Source: Nannocystis bainbridge (GTDB taxonomy: Bacteria; Myxococcota_A; Polyangia; Nannocystales; Nannocystaceae). Taken from it: DNA of 64,000 bases. The notes beneath the pieces are model-generated. The model did not search any database. It was not told the DNA's origin and saw only the letters and a list, made by a program, of their open reading frames with translations. The position numbers were made by a program, and so were the translations under genes. Shown piece by piece: positions 28,532-64,000 of the stretch (positions are counted from its first letter, which is position 1; each line of letters opens with the position of its first letter). Location of the stretch: positions 2,880,001-2,944,000 of the forward strand of contig NZ_JAQNDL010000003.1 of the NCBI RefSeq assembly GCF_028368995.1. Reading direction: 5' to 3'.

Positions 28532-31381
28532 TCAGGCCTTTTGGGCCTCGAGCTCCGCGATGAATTTCGCGACCGCTTCCTCGCACGCCAGCCGCGGCGC
28601 CGTCTCGGTCCTGTCCGGTGGCAGCTCGACCGGCTGCCCCAGCTCCCGTAGCGACGCGACGCTCACCTGCATGTCGTCGAACCACGCGTAGCCCCGCCCA
28701 TCGGCCCATGCTTCGCGCAGGCCCGTGTGCGCCAGCGAGGCCGCGAGCTCGCGCTCGCCGAGCGACCGGTGCGCCGTGCCGAGGATCGCCGCGATCCGGC
28801 TGCCATGCCGCGCTGCCGCCTCGTTCGCCGCGGCGATCGCCTCGCGCGCCGCCGCCGGTCGCCCCGTCTCCGCCATGCACACTGCCAGCCACGCATAAGC
28901 GCGCGCCGCGTCGCTGCCGGCGCGCCGCGCCAGTTGCACGGCCGTCGCCAGGTGGGCCTCCGCGCGCTCGTACGCGCCGTCGCCGGCGGCAATGCGCCCG
29001 ACGGTCAGGTTCCACAGCTTCGCCCGCCCCGGCAACCACCGCCGCGTCAACAGGAACGCGGCGTCCTTCAGGTGCGGCTCGGGGTCGTCGTCGGCGGCGA
29101 ACGCGATCATCGCCCGGGCGCAGCGGACCGTGATCGGCTCGTCGGTGCCCAGCGCCTCAAAATCGGCCTCCGCCTCTTTCCAGCGGCCCAGCGCGGCCGC
29201 CAGCTCGCCGCGGGCGCTCAGCACTGGCCGCAGCTCCGCCGACCGGCGGTCGCTCGCTATCAGCAGGCGGTGCGTCTGCGTGTACGTCGCCAGCGCCGCG
29301 CGTGGGAAGTTGCCGGCCGCCAGCAGTCGACCCCATTGGAGCAGGCTGTACGCGAGGTTGGGCGGGAACCGCTGCTCGAGATCGAAGCCGACGCCGAGCT
29401 CCGTCATCGCCATCGCCTCGTCCCGCCGCCCGAGCTCCGCCAGCGCGTCCGCCAGATGGCCGATCTTGCTGGTGCGAGACCCGATCCCCGCCAGCCGCGG
29501 CGGCGCGTGCAAACCGTCGGCGAACAGCGGCACGAGCAGCTCGGCGAGCACCGGCCGCGCGTCGAGCCGGTCGATGAGGGGCGTCATCAAGCGCTGGTCG
29601 AACACCCGCGCGGCGCCCTCCAGATCGTTCACACCGAGCTCGGCGCGGTACAGCTCGAGCGAGCGCCGCAGGTCGGGCACGCCGCTCACGTCATCGGGCT
29701 CGGCGGGCGTGCCCGCGAAGTGCTCACGCAGCAGCTCCGCCACCGCCCGCCGCTCGAACGAGTCGAGCCGCCCCAGCGCGTGCGCGCGCACGATCGGGTG
29801 GATGTCGTGGCGATTGCTCGCGCGATCCCACAAGAGCAACCCACGCGCCTCGAGCAGACACAGATCGGCGTGCACCCCCGCAAAATGCTCGCGCACCCCG
29901 GGCAGCCGCGCGTACTTTTTCGCGAGCGCGCGGTGGACCTCCCACGCGGCGCACCGCGCCCGCAGCCGCTCGCAGCGGTCCTGCAGCGCCTTTCTGCGCC
30001 AGCGGTCGCTCGCCTTGGCCAGCTCGCGCTCGGCCTCCGCCAATTCGTCGTGCGGCGGCGGCAGCGGCCGGCGCAGCCCCAGCGGCGGCTTCGAGAGCGT
30101 GAGCACATCGTCGATGTCCGCCGCGAACTCGAGCGAGGCCAGTCGGCTCAAGAGCTGCTCGGCCCGCTCCGGCAACGCATCGAAGGCCTCCTCGAGGATG
30201 CGCTCCTGCACCCCCTCCTCGTCGTCGTCCTCGTCCTCGTCATCCTCGCCGCCGACGATCCGCCCCAGCGCCTCGGGCTCCTCGCGCAGCACCCCCGCCA
30301 GCGCGCGCCACAGCAGCACGTGGTGGCCGCTCCTCGCCATCGCCTGCATCGCCGGCGCCACCCACTCGGCTGCTGCATCGACCCCGAGTTCGGCCAGCAG
30401 CGCCATGACCTCCGCCTCCTCGAGACCTTCGAGGTCACACACCTCGATCCCCGGCGCCGGCCCCTCGCCATTCTTTTTCTCTTTTAAGAAATCACTCGGC
30501 AGCACCCGGCTCGTCGCCAGCAGGCGCGACGGCCCCTGCGTCAGCGCGCGCACGAACGCCCCGTCGCGCGGATCGACGAACGACCGCAGATCGATCTCTT
30601 CTGCTTCCGCATCCGGCAGGCGATGGTGGGCGACCAGGGCGCGCTCGAGTCCATCGACCACCAGCAAGAACGGCCGCGTCCGCAGGACCTCCAGCACCGC
30701 CGCCTCGAGCTCCGGACGCAGCCCGTAGTACGCCTCTGCCGGCGACACCCCGGCCGCATACACCGCGAGATGGCGGACCAGATCGTCGATCGACGATCCG
30801 GGCTGATACAGGCTGTAGCCGAGGCACCCGCTCCACTCTCCCAGCGGCAGCCGCCGCTCGAGCCACGCCCACACCAGCGAGCTCTTGCCCGCGCCCCCGC
30901 GCGCCGTCATCACCCGCACTGGCGGCCCGCTCGCCAGCCACGCGTCGAGCCCCGCGAACGCATCGGCGCGCCCGATCAGCGAACGCGGCGCGAACCACCG
31001 GTGAAGCAAGTACGGCGTCGGCGCGGCCGGCGTGACGAACAGGCTGCGCACCCGGTCCCACGCTTCCGCGTCGTCCTCGTCCGCGTCCTCCGCGAACAGC
31101 CGCAGCTCCGCGTACGCGCTCGGCCCGAGCGCTGCCGGCGGCGCGTCCTCCAGGTGCACGTCGGCCGGGCTCTCCGCGTCGCCGACGCGCACGAGCAGCA
31201 GCTCGCCCGCATCATCTGTCCCCGAGGACATGTCCTGCGGGACAAGCCCTGCCCGCCACGCCGCATCGATCACCGCCGCGCGCGCGGGCTCGGGCGCGTG
31301 AACGACGACTCGCCGACGGCTTCGCACCCTCGCAGGATCGCAGGACCCCCTCGTCGCCACAAGCGCCCGCCGGAGCGTCAT
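28532..31381 (-). CDS. STAND/AAA ATPase with C-terminal TPR-like helices
   Basis: LIGRAD…LDAWL, Walker A ARGGAGKSS, Walker B LLVVDGLE, LATSR sensor, IHPIVR motif, helical repeats. Start uncertain. Confidence 0.75.
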   Translation of the reverse strand: MTLRRALVATRGSCDPARVRSRRRVVVHAPEPARAAVIDAAWRAGLVPQDMSSGTDDAGELLLVRVGDAESPADVHLEDAPPAALGPSAYAELRLFAEDADEDDAEAWDRVRSLFVTPAAPTPYLLHRWFAPRSLIGRADAFAGLDAWLASGPPVRVMTARGGAGKSSLVWAWLERRLPLGEWSGCLGYSLYQPGSSIDDLVRHLAVYAAGVSPAEAYYGLRPELEAAVLEVLRTRPFLLVVDGLERALVAHHRLPDAEAEEIDLRSFVDPRDGAFVRALTQGPSRLLATSRVLPSDFLKEKKNGEGPAPGIEVCDLEGLEEAEVMALLAELGVDAAAEWVAPAMQAMARSGHHVLLWRALAGVLREEPEALGRIVGGEDDEDEDDDEEGVQERILEEAFDALPERAEQLLSRLASLEFAADIDDVLTLSKPPLGLRRPLPPPHDELAEAERELAKASDRWRRKALQDRCERLRARCAAWEVHRALAKKYARLPGVREHFAGVHADLCLLEARGLLLWDRASNRHDIHPIVRAHALGRLDSFERRAVAELLREHFAGTPAEPDDVSGVPDLRRSLELYRAELGVNDLEGAARVFDQRLMTPLIDRLDARPVLAELLVPLFADGLHAPPRLAGIGSRTSKIGHLADALAELGRRDEAMAMTELGVGFDLEQRFPPNLAYSLLQWGRLLAAGNFPRAALATYTQTHRLLIASDRRSAELRPVLSARGELAAALGRWKEAEADFEALGTDEPITVRCARAMIAFAADDDPEPHLKDAAFLLTRRWLPGRAKLWNLTVGRIAAGDGAYERAEAHLATAVQLARRAGSDAARAYAWLAVCMAETGRPAAAREAIAAANEAAARHGSRIAAILGTAHRSLGERELAASLAHTGLREAWADGRGYAWFDDMQVSVASLRELGQPVELPPDRTETAPRLACEEAVAKFIAELEAQKA
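31217..31244. repeat. Two abutting TGTCC-N4-GGACA palindromes within a CDS
   Basis: TGTCCccgaGGACA TGTCCtgcgGGACA. Confidence 0.85.
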
Positions 31382-62598: not shown

Positions 62599-64000
62599 TC
62601 AGAGGTTGCCGCCGAGGGCCACGAACTGGTCGAGGGCCAGCGCCGCCTCGCGCACGCCGGCGGTCGGGTCGTGGCACACCGGCGACAGCCCGAAGCCCTC
62701 CGCCCACGCCCCGCCGAGGTCCTCCTTGTCGGCCTCGATCGCCTGCACCAGCTCGCGCACCGCCCGCTGCGTCTGCACGCACGCCGCCCCCTCGAGCGCC
62801 ATCAGGGCCTGGGCCGCCAGCGCCGTCAGCACCGGCGCGCCGAAGCTGCCGTCCTCGCGCTGGCGCCCGCGGAGCTGGCGCTCGACCGTCTGCCGCAGCG
62901 GGTGCGTCGGCGGGCACAGGGCCGCCGCGCACAGGCCGACCTCGGCCAGCGTCGCCACGTCGATGTAGTCGGAGGCCCGCGAGGACACGTCGGCTGTCCG
63001 CGAGGACAGGTCCATCGTCACCCGCCGCCACAGGAACTCGAGCCCGCGGGCGACCCGGTCGTCGTCGGCCTGGAACCCGAGCCGGGCCAGCTGGCGCAGC
63101 GCCGCCGCCGTCACGCGCACGCGCGTCGGCCCGTGCGGATCACCGGCCGACAGCAGCGCCACGTCGCGGATCGGGAACCGGGCCATGAACACGTCGGACT
63201 CGCCGCGCTCGAACCGGCAGAACCCGCCGTCGAGCTCCTGCATCGCCATCAGCACCTCGACCGCGCGCCGGGCCGCCGCGCGGATCCGCGTCTGCAGCGG
63301 CGACGACTTCGGCACCGCCGCCAGCGCCTCGAGCACCGCGCAGGTCGACAGCGTGTCGACGTAGCGGTCGGCCCCGGGCTCGTACGGCCAGCCGCCGGCC
63401 GGCGCGTTGACCCGCAGCTGCCACTCGCCGGGCGCCGTGATCTCCTGGTCCAAGAGCCAGGTCAGCATCGCCTCCGCGTCGGCGTCGCCGGCGGCCAGCG
63501 CCACCCGCACCAGCCGCGCCGTCGTCACCAGCGGCTCGCTCACCTGCCCCTGGGTCAGGTGGACCGTCTCCCCGCTGGCCCCGCCGGCGAAACGGGTGCG
63601 CCCCCGCGCGCGCCGGAGGTAGTCGAGGCCCTCGCGGATCCGCGGATCGTCGAAGCTGGCCCCGAGCACTCGCAGCGCCATCAGGCTCATGAGCGTCGGC
63701 TGGGCCGAGAACCACCCGCCGTGGCGCTGCTGCGCGTCGACCAGCCAGCGCTGCACCCGGGCCAGCGCCGTCGTCAGCACCGGCCCGCGCGGCAGCTTGC
63801 GGATCACCTTGACCGCCTGGTCGAAGGTCTGCAGCAGATCTCCCGCCAGCCCCGGCTGCGTCAGTCGCGGCAGGATCGGCTCGCCGTCGGGCCGCGTGAG
63901 CAGCAGCGCCCGCGGGTCCGGCAGGTGCACCCGCGCCGGCGCGCGCGAAAGCAGCAGGTACGGCGTCATCACCCCGCGGCCCCACGGGGACACCCGGCTC
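62599..64000 (-). CDS. Squalene-hopene/oxidosqualene cyclase-like protein, divergent active site, 5'-truncated by the window
   Basis: SPWGR…P motif, QW repeats (WLVDAQQRHGGW, LMAMQELDGGF, RQREDGSF), GEW…PAGGWPYE; frame open to the window edge. Confidence 0.8.
   Translation of the reverse strand, partial: SRVSPWGRGVMTPYLLLSRAPARVHLPDPRALLLTRPDGEPILPRLTQPGLAGDLLQTFDQAVKVIRKLPRGPVLTTALARVQRWLVDAQQRHGGWFSAQPTLMSLMALRVLGASFDDPRIREGLDYLRRARGRTRFAGGASGETVHLTQGQVSEPLVTTARLVRVALAAGDADAEAMLTWLLDQEITAPGEWQLRVNAPAGGWPYEPGADRYVDTLSTCAVLEALAAVPKSSPLQTRIRAAARRAVEVLMAMQELDGGFCRFERGESDVFMARFPIRDVALLSAGDPHGPTRVRVTAAALRQLARLGFQADDDRVARGLEFLWRRVTMDLSSRTADVSSRASDYIDVATLAEVGLCAAALCPPTHPLRQTVERQLRGRQREDGSFGAPVLTALAAQALMALEGAACVQTQRAVRELVQAIEADKEDLGGAWAEGFGLSPVCHDPTAGVREAALALDQFVALGGNL

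What the first reader, a model, noticed from the sequence alone, without database searches (positions are those of the whole stretch)
31217..63008. Strongly over-represented 14-bp palindrome TGTCC-N4-GGACA dispersed through genes and intergenic DNA, often in tandem
Seen: perfect copies start at 31217, 31231, 34767, 40093, 45533, 47012, 47071, 47143, 50579, 51302, 55927, 55948, 58620, 60898, 60964 and 62995. One- or two-mismatch copies lie at 34795, 38644, 46953, 50593, 52035 (x4), 56913, 57323, 57337, 59506, 62566 and 62580. The spacer varies in sequence but is always 4 nt, and units frequently abut with 14-bp period (junction GGACATGTCC). Nine perfect copies are inside CDSs of unrelated function. 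I saw none in 1-31 kb, the island-rich part. A rough estimate assuming ~72% GC gives <0.1 chance copies per 64 kb. Inference: a binding site for a dimeric, cooperatively spreading chromosome-organising protein (analogous to matS, Noc/SlmA sites or parS but matching none I know), or a recombinase/methylase target. It does not look like a promoter operator.
Basis: partly seen in the sequence, partly recalled or inferred. Interest (0 to 1): 0.87.

Follow-up and report, generated by a model that had tools for sequence, protein, structure and literature searches.

The report
Genus-wide hyper-abundant bipartite DNA palindrome
The 14-letter palindrome TGTCC-N4-GGACA is real: it occurs thousands of times in this myxobacterial (Nannocystis) genome and its relatives, behaves like the docking site of an unidentified two-part DNA-binding protein, and crowds just behind gene ends, much like the still unexplained HIP1 palindrome of cyanobacteria.

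Summary
The window holds 16 perfect copies (chance 0.03). The 11-Mb genome holds 1987, against 0-19 for every other spacer length except two-unit arrays. In coding DNA there are 884, against 6.2 after codon shuffling and 26.2 after synonymous shuffling. All 10 congeners searched carry it; two sister genera carry it weakly and the other genera searched are at background. Record titles place it in Nannocystis. Spacer preferences are two-fold symmetric with respect to transcription, and the arms and flanks show no compensatory covariation, so the site is read as duplex DNA by a symmetric reader, not as a hairpin. Arms are conserved at synonymous sites (94.1% vs 81.2%). Most coding copies arose in place by substitution in variable protein segments; a few arose as in-frame insertions. 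Density is 5.35/kb between convergent genes, 0.68/kb between divergent genes and 0.30/kb in genes, and it peaks 0-80 bp after stop codons. No RAYT gene, parent IS, Rfam family or paper was found. The protein and the function remain inferred.

The parts
31217..31244 (.). Two abutting perfect units
   Evidence: They lie inside the called ORF 28532-31381(-), a TPR protein, 137-164 nt from its called start. An in-frame ATG lies directly after them, so coding status is uncertain.
34767..34808 (.). Three-unit array (perfect, degenerate, 1-mismatch) between convergent genes 33853-34761(+) and 34821-35927(-)
   Evidence: The array is absent from G005, G007 and G010, and G001 has a different array at this place.
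40093..40106 (.). Perfect unit in the NuoF-like gene 39693-41228(+), just before the FMN-binding domain (residues 147-317)
   Evidence: It is kept in G001, G003, G005 and G007, with different spacers in each.
45533..45546 (.). Perfect unit in ORF 45013-46095(-), which has no Pfam family
   Evidence: It is kept in G005, G007 and G010.
46953..47156 (.). Four units (46953 with 1 mismatch; 47012, 47071 and 47143 perfect) in the convergent gap 46932-47179; the first three lie in a 59-bp tandem repeat (46928-47089)
50579..50606 (.). A perfect unit abutting a 1-mismatch unit, in ORF 50331-51284(+)
   Evidence: Both are kept in G001 and G007.
51302..51315 (.). Perfect unit that fills most of the 42-bp gap between convergent genes 50331-51284(+) and 51327-51641(-)
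52035..52243 (.). Four 1-mismatch copies (52035, 52100, 52165, 52230), one in each unit of a 65-bp x 4 tandem repeat in intergenic DNA
55115..55128 (.).
55927..55961 (.). Two perfect units 21 bp apart in the C-terminal tail of the HlyD-family gene, after its last Pfam domain (residues 249-335)
   Evidence: They are kept in five congeners. At the second unit (55948) the central codon differs in each genome while the rare ACA codon is kept.
56913..56926 (.). 1-mismatch copy in the C39-peptidase/ABC-transporter gene 56072-58762(+)
   Evidence: A 24-nt stretch here is invariant in six genomes.
57323..57350 (.). Two abutting 1-mismatch copies in the same ABC-transporter gene
58620..58633 (.). Perfect unit in the C-terminal tail of the ABC-transporter gene
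   Evidence: G005 has TGGCC-GATC-GGCCA here (G007 and G010 close variants), so the perfect copy arose by substitutions in place.
59506..59519 (.). 1-mismatch copy in the ABC-transporter gene 58759-60894(+)
60898..60977 (.). Two perfect units (60898, 60964) in the convergent gap 60895-61075
   Evidence: At 60898, right after the stop codon, G001, G003 and G010 also carry a unit with other spacers and offsets, and G005 and G007 only a degenerate one. 60964 has an A/T run beside it.
62566..62593 (.). Two abutting degenerate units (2 and 1 mismatches) between the squalene epoxidase gene and the cyclase gene
62995..63008 (.). Perfect unit inside the squalene/oxidosqualene cyclase-like gene 62599-64518(-); it is part of a 36-bp (12-codon) insertion
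   Evidence: The insertion is present in G000, G001, G003, G005 and G010. It is absent from G002, G004, G006, G008, G009, G011 and G012.

Best explanation
TGTCC-N4-GGACA (fuller consensus CATGTCC-N4-GGACATG) is a Nannocystis-specific, genome-saturating recognition site for a still unidentified two-fold symmetric, probably dimeric, sequence-specific DNA-binding protein. Shown: the site is read as duplex DNA. Its arms are held by DNA-level constraint even at synonymous codon positions, while the 4-nt spacer is nearly free. Most coding copies arise in place by point substitution in poorly conserved protein segments. A minority arise as in-frame insertions, and intergenic arrays differ between relatives by indels. 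Copies are rare in recently acquired DNA. They are concentrated 0-80 bp after stop codons, and 49% of the 1382 gaps between convergent genes carry at least one. Arrays there keep an exact 14-bp phase. Inferred: several dimers load side by side at transcription-unit ends and act as a protein-bound boundary, either a roadblock to read-through or a supercoil or topoisomerase-docking site, as REP/BIME-2 elements do in E. coli. Single copies inside genes are tolerated low-dose sites of the same system. About 0.75 for 'duplex site of a symmetric protein kept by selection or drive'; about 0.4 for the gene-end boundary role.
For: Abundance and specificity: 1987 perfect copies at n=4 against 0-19 at other spacers. 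There are 4258 one-mismatch copies, against 137-886 for eight control palindromes. In CDS there are 884, against 6.2 and 26.2 under the two codon-aware nulls. Every top 5-Nn-5 palindrome in the genome is a register of this one motif.

Duplex, symmetric reading: after orienting by transcription, spacer position 1 (C .44, T .34, G .17, A .05) mirrors the complement of position 4. Sense G.U versus A.C mismatches number 316 vs 265 in tandem gaps and 329 vs 404 in CDS. Paired-position double mismatches are Watson-Crick in 38% of cases, against 35% expected from the single-mismatch rates (my arithmetic). Flank pairing does not exceed consensus expectation in CDS and barely does in intergenic DNA. 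Adjacent T-runs are not oriented with transcription: 92 downstream vs 88 upstream.

Constraint: third-codon identity between G000 and G001 is 382/406 in arms, 2321/2857 in flanks (p=1.6e-12) and 91/125 in spacers. Of 140 alignable G001 sites, 100 are still sites in G000.

Origin: 61 of 72 coding sites are ungapped against G009 orthologs. 17 of 19 are ungapped against the motif-poor G011, where amino-acid identity at the site is 0.27 against 0.55 in random windows.

Placement: 5.35 sites/kb in convergent gaps, 1.96 in tandem gaps, 0.68 in divergent gaps and 0.296 in CDS. In long gaps density is 3-6/kb just after stops, about 1/kb mid-gap and 0.14-0.7/kb before starts. Arrays of 3 or more units number 326 in intergenic DNA and 73 in CDS. 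Only 68 of 2216 neighbouring units share a spacer.

Lineage: all 10 congeners hold 114-2090 copies, two sister genera hold 87 and 161, and the other 18 genomes hold 0-7. Accessory DNA has 0.20/kb against 0.70/kb in shared DNA.

Against: No protein was identified. No binding, methylation, RNA-end or cleavage data exist for this organism. About 45% of perfect copies lie in genes (884 of 1987), where a boundary element has no obvious use. Conditioning on the motif being present in G000 inflates apparent arm conservation. If every site were ancestral, about 90.6% identity would be expected, and 94.1% then exceeds it only modestly (z about 2.4, my arithmetic). My gene calls come from a crude GC3 caller, and start codons are uncertain. 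Stop-proximal enrichment could partly reflect where any insert is tolerated. The known gyrase motif is long and degenerate, unlike this sharp 14-mer.
Confidence: 0.45

Rival explanations
1. It is an uptake or self-recognition sequence. A surface or periplasmic receptor of the DNA-uptake machinery prefers this dyad. Biased uptake plus recombination then drives the motif to about 1 per kb (molecular drive, as for Neisseria DUS and Haemophilus USS), and copies survive wherever they are tolerated.
For: Spread is even over all contigs, with only 6 of 550 20-kb windows empty. Accessory DNA is depleted (0.20 vs 0.70/kb). Coding copies sit in variable protein segments and arise by substitution. The motif is shared across a genus with a flank 'dialect': 39 of G009's 41 perfect units carry CTGTCC-N4-GGACAG flanks. 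A/T runs lie next to 11.2% of intergenic sites, against 2.2% of random positions. ComEC is present.
Against: ComEC is found in 27 of 31 genomes, including motif-free genera, so it discriminates nothing. Known uptake sequences are single oriented words, not bipartite palindromes in 14-bp phased arrays (recalled). A purely extracellular reader does not explain a 4-6-fold peak just after stop codons over the mid-gap level, unless copies were secondarily co-opted there. Competence of Nannocystis is not known to me.
Confidence: 0.15
2. It is a hairpin element acting in RNA or single-stranded DNA: a REP-like 3' stabiliser, an intrinsic or bidirectional terminator, or a target of a hairpin-specific enzyme.
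For: The strongest enrichment is behind stop codons and between convergent genes. Predicted RNA hairpins have -4.9 to -9.5 kcal/mol. One window copy (60964) scores as terminator-like.
Against: There is no compensatory covariation in arms or flanks. Loop composition is strand-symmetric after orienting by transcription, with no G.U over A.C preference beyond 54%. Adjacent T-runs point downstream 92 times and upstream 88 times. The stem is only 5-7 bp. About 45% of perfect copies lie in genes. No Y1/RAYT transposase was found in 11 of 11 Nannocystis genomes searched. No Rfam family matches in the window.
Confidence: 0.15
3. It is a very small mobile element, or the footprint or solo ends of a transposon, that spreads by insertion, like the small dispersed repeats of Nostoc or the Rickettsia palindromic elements.
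For: A 36-bp in-frame insertion made of two 21-bp motif units sits in the cyclase gene of one clade only. Coding sites overlap alignment gaps more often than random windows do: 11 of 72 vs 2.2% and 2 of 19 vs 3.2%. Intergenic arrays differ by indels between congeners. The TG...CA termini resemble transposon ends (recalled).
Against: 85-89% of coding sites are not indels relative to orthologs; they replace equal-length, poorly conserved sequence. Spacers are nearly free (189 of 256 seen), and only 3.1% of neighbouring units share one. There is no high-copy IS: the largest family has 3 copies and lacks TGTCC ends. No other TGTCC...GGACA spacing up to 20 is enriched.
Confidence: 0.08
4. It is a HIP1-like methylation- or repair-linked word. 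The dyad is the target of an orphan methyltransferase or of a sequence-biased repair system that restores near-cognate sites.
For: The phenomenology matches HIP1: a hyper-abundant palindrome in genes and spacers, conserved between genomes (PMC5861425, abstract read). A search-listing abstract says HIP1 is recognised by two methylases (PMC13756078). The G at position 2 and the C at position 13 are almost invariant.
Against: Ten specified bases is long for a methyltransferase site (recalled). No methylome was available. Biased repair does not explain the gene-end peak or the phased arrays. CATG itself is only 1.24-fold over expectation.
Confidence: 0.1

Closest known systems
HIP1 (GCGATCGC) of cyanobacteria (PMC5861425, abstract read)
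   Same: Both are lineage-specific palindromes over-represented by two orders of magnitude (156-fold here; 15-300-fold for HIP1). Both occur inside and between genes, are conserved at orthologous positions beyond neutral expectation, and have no agreed function.
   Different: This motif is bipartite (5-N4-5) with a free spacer, not a contiguous octamer. It forms 14-bp phased arrays, is strongly biased to the DNA just behind stop codons, and occurs in a myxobacterial genus. No methylase link has been shown.
REP/BIME elements and REPINs of enterobacteria and Pseudomonas (PMC3116915, listing abstract only; PMC6379681, passages read)
   Same: Both are short palindromic repeats clustered in arrays behind genes and between convergent genes. 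BIME-2 acts as a strong gyrase site, which is a plausible model for how these arrays work.
   Different: REPs are extragenic, 20-40 nt imperfect hairpins with a RAYT transposase (recalled). Here about 45% of perfect copies are in genes, the dyad is 14 bp without an extended stem, and no Y1 transposase was found in the genus.
DNA uptake sequences (Neisseria DUS, Pasteurellaceae USS; recalled, no paper read)
   Same: Both have a density of roughly 1 per kb, an even spread, depletion in foreign DNA, genus-level dialects, copies in tolerant parts of genes, and enrichment behind genes.
   Different: Uptake sequences are single oriented words. This motif is a two-fold symmetric bipartite site in phased arrays, and uptake bias is untested.
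matS, parS, Noc and SlmA sites
   Same: All are palindromic sites for dimeric DNA-binding proteins.
   Different: Those sites are few and confined to ori- or ter-proximal zones. This motif has at least about 6000 copies on all five contigs, and its sequence matches none of them.
FNR-type (TTGAT-N4-ATCAA) and PadR-type (ATGT-N8-ACAT) operators (recalled)
   Same: The geometry is the same: 5-N4-5, and ATGTCC-N4-GGACAT reads as ATGT-N8-ACAT. A winged-helix dimer of such a family is therefore a plausible reader.
   Different: Operators number tens per genome and lie in promoters. These sites avoid promoters. No family assignment was tested.

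Membership tests
REP/REPIN-RAYT system | A cognate Y1 (RAYT / IS200-like) transposase gene in the genome | tested here: not met
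   PF01797 was found in 0 of 11 Nannocystis genomes, G000 included. The control search rang in 6 of 14 reference genomes.
REP/REPIN-RAYT system | Extragenic, 20-40 nt imperfect hairpin whose stem is maintained | tested here: not met
   884 of 1987 perfect copies lie in called CDSs. 72 sites with at most one mismatch lie inside ortholog alignments. There is no stem extension or covariation beyond the 5-7 bp consensus.
REP/REPIN-RAYT system | Enrichment behind genes and between convergent genes, in clusters | tested here: met
   Density is 5.35/kb in convergent gaps against 0.68/kb in divergent gaps. Arrays of 3 or more units number 326 in intergenic DNA.
Highly iterated palindrome (HIP1 type) | A short palindrome over-represented more than 15-fold in genes and spacers of a whole lineage | tested here: met
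   Enrichment is 156-fold over the k-mer product expectation and 34-140-fold over the codon-aware nulls. All 10 congeners carry it.
Highly iterated palindrome (HIP1 type) | Sites conserved between genomes beyond neutral expectation | tested here: met
   Third-codon identity is 94.1% in arms against 81.2% in flanks. It remains modestly above a conservative 90.6% expectation (my arithmetic).
Highly iterated palindrome (HIP1 type) | The GCGATCGC word itself and its cognate methylases | tested here: not met
   The sequence and architecture differ. Methylation cannot be tested with these tools.
DNA uptake sequence (DUS/USS) | Preferential uptake of motif-bearing DNA by the competence machinery | not testable with these tools
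   ComEC (PF03772) is present but is found in 27 of 31 genomes searched, so it is uninformative.
DNA uptake sequence (DUS/USS) | Even genomic spread, depletion in acquired DNA, lineage dialects | tested here: met
DNA uptake sequence (DUS/USS) | A single asymmetric word | tested here: not met
   The motif is a two-fold symmetric bipartite dyad with a free 4-nt spacer.
Intrinsic terminator | Hairpin followed by a U-tract on the transcribed strand | tested here: not met
   Only 11.2% of intergenic sites have a T-run beside them. In co-directional gaps it lies downstream 92 times and upstream 88 times.
MITE or IS-derived element | A parent element with the same termini and target-site duplications | tested here: not met
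   Self-comparison found no family above 3 copies, and that 1.4-kb element has other ends. Most coding copies are not insertions.
parS / matS / Noc / SlmA-type chromosome sites | Few copies confined to one chromosomal macrodomain | tested here: not met
   There are 10-108 sites per 100 kb along the contigs, apart from short terminal bins.

The most novel reading that the evidence does not exclude
Nannocystis marks the ends of its transcription units with a dedicated protein-DNA system. One sequence-specific dimer recognises at least 6000 copies of a single dyad, and phased arrays of it between genes act as protein-built terminators, insulators or topological barriers. This would be a genome-wide 'punctuation' code not described in bacteria. 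It seems to have grown from a small ancestral regulon, which is still visible as 87 and 161 copies in two sister genera.
Probability: 0.25. Interest if true: 0.88.

Novelty: new variant of a known kind. Interest (0 to 1): 0.72.

Why it matters
Hyper-abundant short palindromes such as HIP1, REP and uptake sequences are among the oldest unexplained features of bacterial genomes. This one has unusually clean properties. It is one sharply defined bipartite dyad with evidence for a symmetric duplex reader. It has a clear positional rule, just behind stop codons, with 49% of all convergent gene gaps occupied. Its abundance falls in steps from this clade through more distant congeners and sister genera to background. 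That gradient makes the reader protein findable by phyletic profiling or a simple pull-down, and it makes the function testable in a culturable, non-pathogenic organism. In practice the motif is also a marker for native versus acquired DNA in Nannocystis genomes. It is a source of in-frame peptide insertions (LSxGT, VPxD) that annotators and protein modellers will meet.

Tried and rejected
1. REP/RAYT: no PF01797 in the genus.

2. Parent IS or footprint: megablast of the genome against itself found 78 HSPs of 500 bp or more. The largest family has 3 copies, with unrelated ends.

3. RNA family: 0 Rfam matches at gathering score in the window.

4. Intrinsic terminators: the tool flagged 7 terminator-like sites in 44-64 kb, against 3.1 in shuffles. 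Only 2 of them are motif units. The genome-wide T-run orientation test was negative.

5. Dialects in other genera: 200 kb of G011 showed no enriched 5-Nn-5 palindrome. Only 41 kb of G013 could be fetched, because contig C1 was short.

6. Ancestral regulon in G011: I looked at 20 of its 87 sites. About 11 lie in ORFs. The three intergenic ones I examined lie next to unrelated genes (a desaturase, a TetR gene, a DUF4215 gene). There was no pattern.

7. Recombination breakpoints: BLAST alignment ends between G001 and G000 fall within 10 bp of a site 9.4% of the time, against 0.9% for shifted controls. This is confounded by gene ends.

8. Phages: 102 singleton hits of the 18-mer in 2.9 million viral contigs, and no listed contig appears twice.

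9. Expression: no RNA holder was listed. Soil-metagenome contigs laid on 44-64 kb were short and gave nothing usable on site turnover.

10. The first collection scan, with a three-junction pattern, found nothing because it was too strict.

11. Literature: searches for Nannocystis with palindrom*, for Nannocystis with genome and repeats, and for five spellings of the motif found no description. The first search was off target.

12. Competence: ComEC is ubiquitous and therefore uninformative.

13. At two mismatches the excess is no longer clear: 7530 copies against 2915-9369 in controls. I therefore count only copies with at most one mismatch.

Full report
**1.

The pattern TGTCC-N4-GGACA occurs 16 times in the window, at exactly the listed places. 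One hundred dinucleotide-preserving shuffles gave a mean of 0.03 and never more than 1. The listed near-copies are real: most have one arm mismatch, and 38644 and 62566 have two. The first 31 kb holds no perfect copy and two 1-mismatch copies, at 21370 and 21658.

**2. It is a property of the whole genome**

The window lies in an 11.05-Mb assembly of 5 contigs with 71.5% G+C.

- Genome-wide there are 1987 perfect copies with a 4-nt spacer.
- Spacers of 0-20 nt otherwise give 0-19 copies. The exception is n=18, with 379 copies, which is the outer arms of two abutting units.
- The abutting junction GGACATGTCC occurs 956 times.
- One-mismatch copies number 4258, against 137-886 for eight control palindromes of like composition.
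- At two mismatches the excess is no longer clear: 7530 against 2915-9369.

I therefore speak of at least about 6000 copies. An unbiased scan of all 5-Nn-5 palindromes finds only registers of this one motif at the top (TGTCC-N4-GGACA at 156-fold, then CATGT-N8-ACATG, ATGTC-N6-GACAT and CTGTC-N6-GACAG). The fuller consensus is therefore (C)(A/C)TGTCC-N4-GGACA(T/G)(G).

Within the arms, the G at position 2 and the C at position 13 are almost invariant (29 and 21 of the 4258 single mismatches). Positions 3 and 12 are the loosest, with 946 and 943. The spacer is nearly free: 189 of 256 tetramers are seen, and the commonest makes up 5%. It shows only a preference for Y at its first base and R at its last, and it is richer in A+T than the genome.

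**3.

I called genes with a crude GC3/GC2 ORF scorer. It gave 8245 genes and 84-87% coding per contig. By these calls, 1086 perfect copies are intergenic, 884 lie inside CDSs and 17 straddle an edge.

The 884 compare with 6.2 after shuffling codon order within genes, and with 26.2 after shuffling synonymous codons with the protein kept (five shuffles each). All other spacers from 0 to 10 stay at background. So the enrichment is specific to n=4 and sits at the DNA level, in codon choice as well as in protein sequence.

In genes the motif is read in all three frames: 503 as V-[PL]-x-D, 308 as [LM]-S-x-[GR]-T with the rare ACA codon, and 73 as C-P-x-G-[QH]. That coding copies are real does not rest on my gene caller alone. 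72 sites with at most one mismatch lie inside tblastn alignments of 226 ortholog pairs with G009.

**4. Lineage**

All 10 congeners searched carry the motif, with 114-2090 copies, against 1-6 for the reversed control word. Two other genera of the family have 87 and 161 copies. The other 18 genomes of the family and class have 0-7.

A scan of one genome for each of 185,579 species with GGACATGTCC-N4-GGACATGTCC gave 78 loci. Of these, 75 are in records titled Nannocystis, Nannocystaceae or Myxococcales, and 3 are singletons elsewhere. The genus is therefore Nannocystis (Myxococcota).

In a more distant congener, G009, 39 of the 41 perfect units in 400 kb carry C...G flanks (CTGTCC-N4-GGACAG), and junctions are rarer. 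This is a dialect. In 200 kb of the sister genus G011 no 5-Nn-5 palindrome is enriched.

**5. Duplex DNA or hairpin?**

Four tests point to duplex DNA read with two-fold symmetry.

- *Spacer symmetry.* I oriented sites by the direction of transcription (co-directional gaps and CDSs). Spacer position 1 (C .44, T .34, G .17, A .05) is then the mirror complement of position 4 (G .44, A .35, C .17, T .04). Each spacer is about as common as its reverse complement. An RNA or a single strand would not treat the two loop ends alike.
- *Wobble pairs.* Mismatches that would keep a G.U pair in the sense strand are not clearly favoured over those giving A.C: 316 vs 265 in tandem gaps, 329 vs 404 in CDSs, and 248 vs 271 in convergent gaps, where sites cannot be oriented and were read on the + strand.
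- *Covariation.* Double mismatches at paired positions are Watson-Crick no more often than the single-mismatch rates predict: 38% vs 35% at positions 3/12 (my arithmetic). Flanking bases pair no more than their consensus predicts in CDSs, and only slightly more in intergenic DNA.
- *T-runs.* A/T runs lie next to 11.2% of intergenic sites (366 of 3261), against 2.2% of random intergenic positions. In co-directional gaps the T-run is downstream 92 times and upstream 88 times, so these are not U-tracts of terminators.

The stem would be only 5-7 bp, with -4.9 to -9.5 kcal/mol as RNA.

**6. Constraint**

I compared 460 kb of congener G001 with G000; 74.5% of it aligns by megablast. Of 315 G001 sites, 140 could be aligned on both sides. 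Of those 140, 100 are still sites with at most one mismatch in G000, 16 have two mismatches, 19 are degenerate and 5 are partly gapped. The other 175 sites lie in DNA that does not align on one or both sides, mostly intergenic.

For G000 coding sites, third-codon identity is 382/406 (94.1%) in the arms, 2321/2857 (81.2%) in the flanks (Fisher p=1.6e-12) and 91/125 (72.8%) in the spacer.

A caution applies. The sites were chosen because G000 has the motif. If every site were ancestral, only one branch could change it, and about 90.6% identity would be expected. The observed 94.1% is then still higher, but modestly so (z about 2.4, my arithmetic).

Window examples make the point visible. At 55948 six genomes read (A/G)TG TCC nnn GGG ACA, with six different middle codons and the rare ACA codon kept.

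**7. How copies arise**

Against G009 orthologs (mean 69.5% identity), 61 of 72 coding sites are ungapped. Eleven overlap gaps, against 2.2% of random 5-residue windows. Against the motif-poor G011 (68 pairs, mean 54% identity), 17 of 19 are ungapped. Amino-acid identity at the site is 0.27, against 0.55 in random windows. Most coding copies are therefore written in place by substitution into poorly conserved segments such as linkers and tails (Pfam positions).

At 58620, G005 has TGGCC-GATC-GGCCA (G007 and G010 close variants) where G000 has the perfect unit.

A minority of copies are insertions. The copy at 62995 is part of a 36-bp, 12-codon insertion (two 21-bp DLSSRTS units) in the cyclase gene. 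The insertion is present in five close genomes and absent from seven others.

Intergenic arrays differ between congeners by indels (34767). Arrays are not fresh duplications: only 68 of 2216 neighbouring units share a spacer (3.1%, against 1.3% for random pairs). Yet the exact 14-bp phase is kept.

**8. Where the copies lie**

Density of sites with at most one mismatch:

| Location | Sites/kb | Note |
|---|---|---|
| Between convergent genes | 5.35 | 49% of 1382 such gaps have at least one site |
| Co-directional gaps | 1.96 | |
| Between divergent genes | 0.68 | |
| CDSs | 0.296 | |

In gaps of 300 bp or more, density is 3-6/kb in the first 80 bp after a stop codon. It falls to about 1/kb by 300-400 bp, and is 0.14-0.7/kb in the 80 bp before a start. 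Arrays of three or more units number 326 in intergenic DNA and 73 in CDSs.

Along the contigs the density is 10-108 per 100 kb, apart from short terminal bins, with no ori- or ter-like zone. Six of 550 20-kb windows are empty (Poisson expectation 0.006), and one of them is the start of this window.

G000 stretches of 3 kb or more without a G001 match have 0.20 sites/kb, against 0.70/kb in shared DNA. The first 36 kb of the window is such a stretch. It carries accessory-type genes.

**9. What it is not**

- No Y1/RAYT transposase was found in any of the 11 Nannocystis genomes.
- There is no high-copy IS and no parent element with these ends.
- No Rfam family matches in the window.
- In the viral collection the 18-mer gave 102 singleton hits and no contig with clustered copies.
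- ComEC is present but ubiquitous.
- No paper in the held library describes the motif. I searched for Nannocystis with palindrom*, for Nannocystis with genome and repeats, and for five spellings of the motif.

**10. Reading**

The evidence fits a sequence-specific, two-fold symmetric DNA-binding protein of the Nannocystis core genome whose sites have multiplied to saturation.

The steps that are shown are duplex symmetry, arm constraint, origin in place, depletion in foreign DNA, the gene-end peak and the phased arrays.

The steps that are inferred are the protein itself and its role. My preferred role is a protein-bound boundary at transcription-unit ends, acting as a roadblock or as a supercoil or topoisomerase dock. 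This follows the example of BIME-2 repeats, which are transcription-independent strong gyrase sites in E. coli, and gyrase cuts with a 4-bp stagger at a symmetric motif (PMC6379681, passages read). I give this role about 0.4.

The rivals are an uptake-type molecular drive, an RNA or single-strand hairpin element, a tiny mobile element, and a HIP1-like methylation or repair word. They are weighed in their own sections.

The low copy numbers in two sister genera (87 and 161), with the same extended consensus in G011, suggest an ordinary regulon that expanded in Nannocystis.

**11. Comparison and novelty**

The closest known thing is HIP1 of cyanobacteria. It is hyper-abundant, conserved by selection, found in and between genes, and of unknown function (PMC5861425, abstract read). 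The present motif differs in its architecture (bipartite with a free spacer), in its phased arrays, in its gene-end bias and in its lineage.

It fails the defining tests of REP/RAYT, of intrinsic terminators, of MITEs, and of matS/parS-type sites. I file it as a new variant of the known kind 'highly iterated genomic palindrome'.

Notes on other genomes with GGACA/TGTCC dyads concern phage operators, giant-virus repeats and enhancer sites, with other spacings.

Noticed in passing
window 1-36000: This is an accessory stretch with no megablast match in congener G001 and almost no motif copies. It encodes an Rhs/Tc-like polymorphic toxin ORF (SpvB, TcdB-midN, RHS repeats and a C-terminal NucA/NucB DNase domain; 5680-11523). 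It also encodes a STAND-type NTPase-TPR protein with a PNP_UDP_1 nucleosidase-like domain (16825-21360) and a WYL-domain regulator (25709-26728). It looks like a competition or defence island.
   Followed up: partly
window 61076-64518: A squalene epoxidase gene and a squalene/oxidosqualene cyclase-like gene lie side by side on the minus strand. This is a sterol-type pathway pair. The cyclase carries the 12-residue motif-derived insertion in one clade of the genus only.
   Followed up: partly
window 56890-56935: About 24 nt around the 1-mismatch copy at 56913 (GAC CTG TCC CAA AGT ACA CTC TC) are identical in all six genomes compared, rare codons included, while the flanks vary. Conservation here reaches beyond the arms into the spacer.
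   Followed up: no
window 46928-47089 and 51982-52246: Two intergenic tandem repeats (59 bp x 2.7 and 65 bp x 4) each carry motif units within their repeat unit, so arrays are also multiplied by larger duplications.
   Followed up: partly
G009 (L142-L161, 400 kb): In this more distant congener 39 of the 41 perfect units are flanked C...G (CTGTCC-N4-GGACAG), and abutting junctions are few (10). This is a dialect of the motif within the genus.
   Followed up: partly
G000 vs G001, 460 kb: Ends of BLAST alignments between the two genomes fall within 10 bp of a motif centre ten times more often than shifted controls (9.4% vs 0.9%). This may only reflect gene ends, but it could mean that indels or rearrangements start at the sites.
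   Followed up: partly
G005 vs G007 (L028-L030, L034-L036): Two motif spacers in apparently coding DNA differ by 1-2 nt in length between these 94%-identical genomes, at A-runs. This is either assembly error or real spacer-length slippage.
   Followed up: no
window 39223-44102: There is a NuoE/F/G-like or formate-dehydrogenase-type gene set: an Nuo51 FMN-binding protein and a molybdopterin oxidoreductase with Fe-S domains. The NuoF-like protein has a 146-residue N-terminal extension in which the motif copy lies.
   Followed up: no
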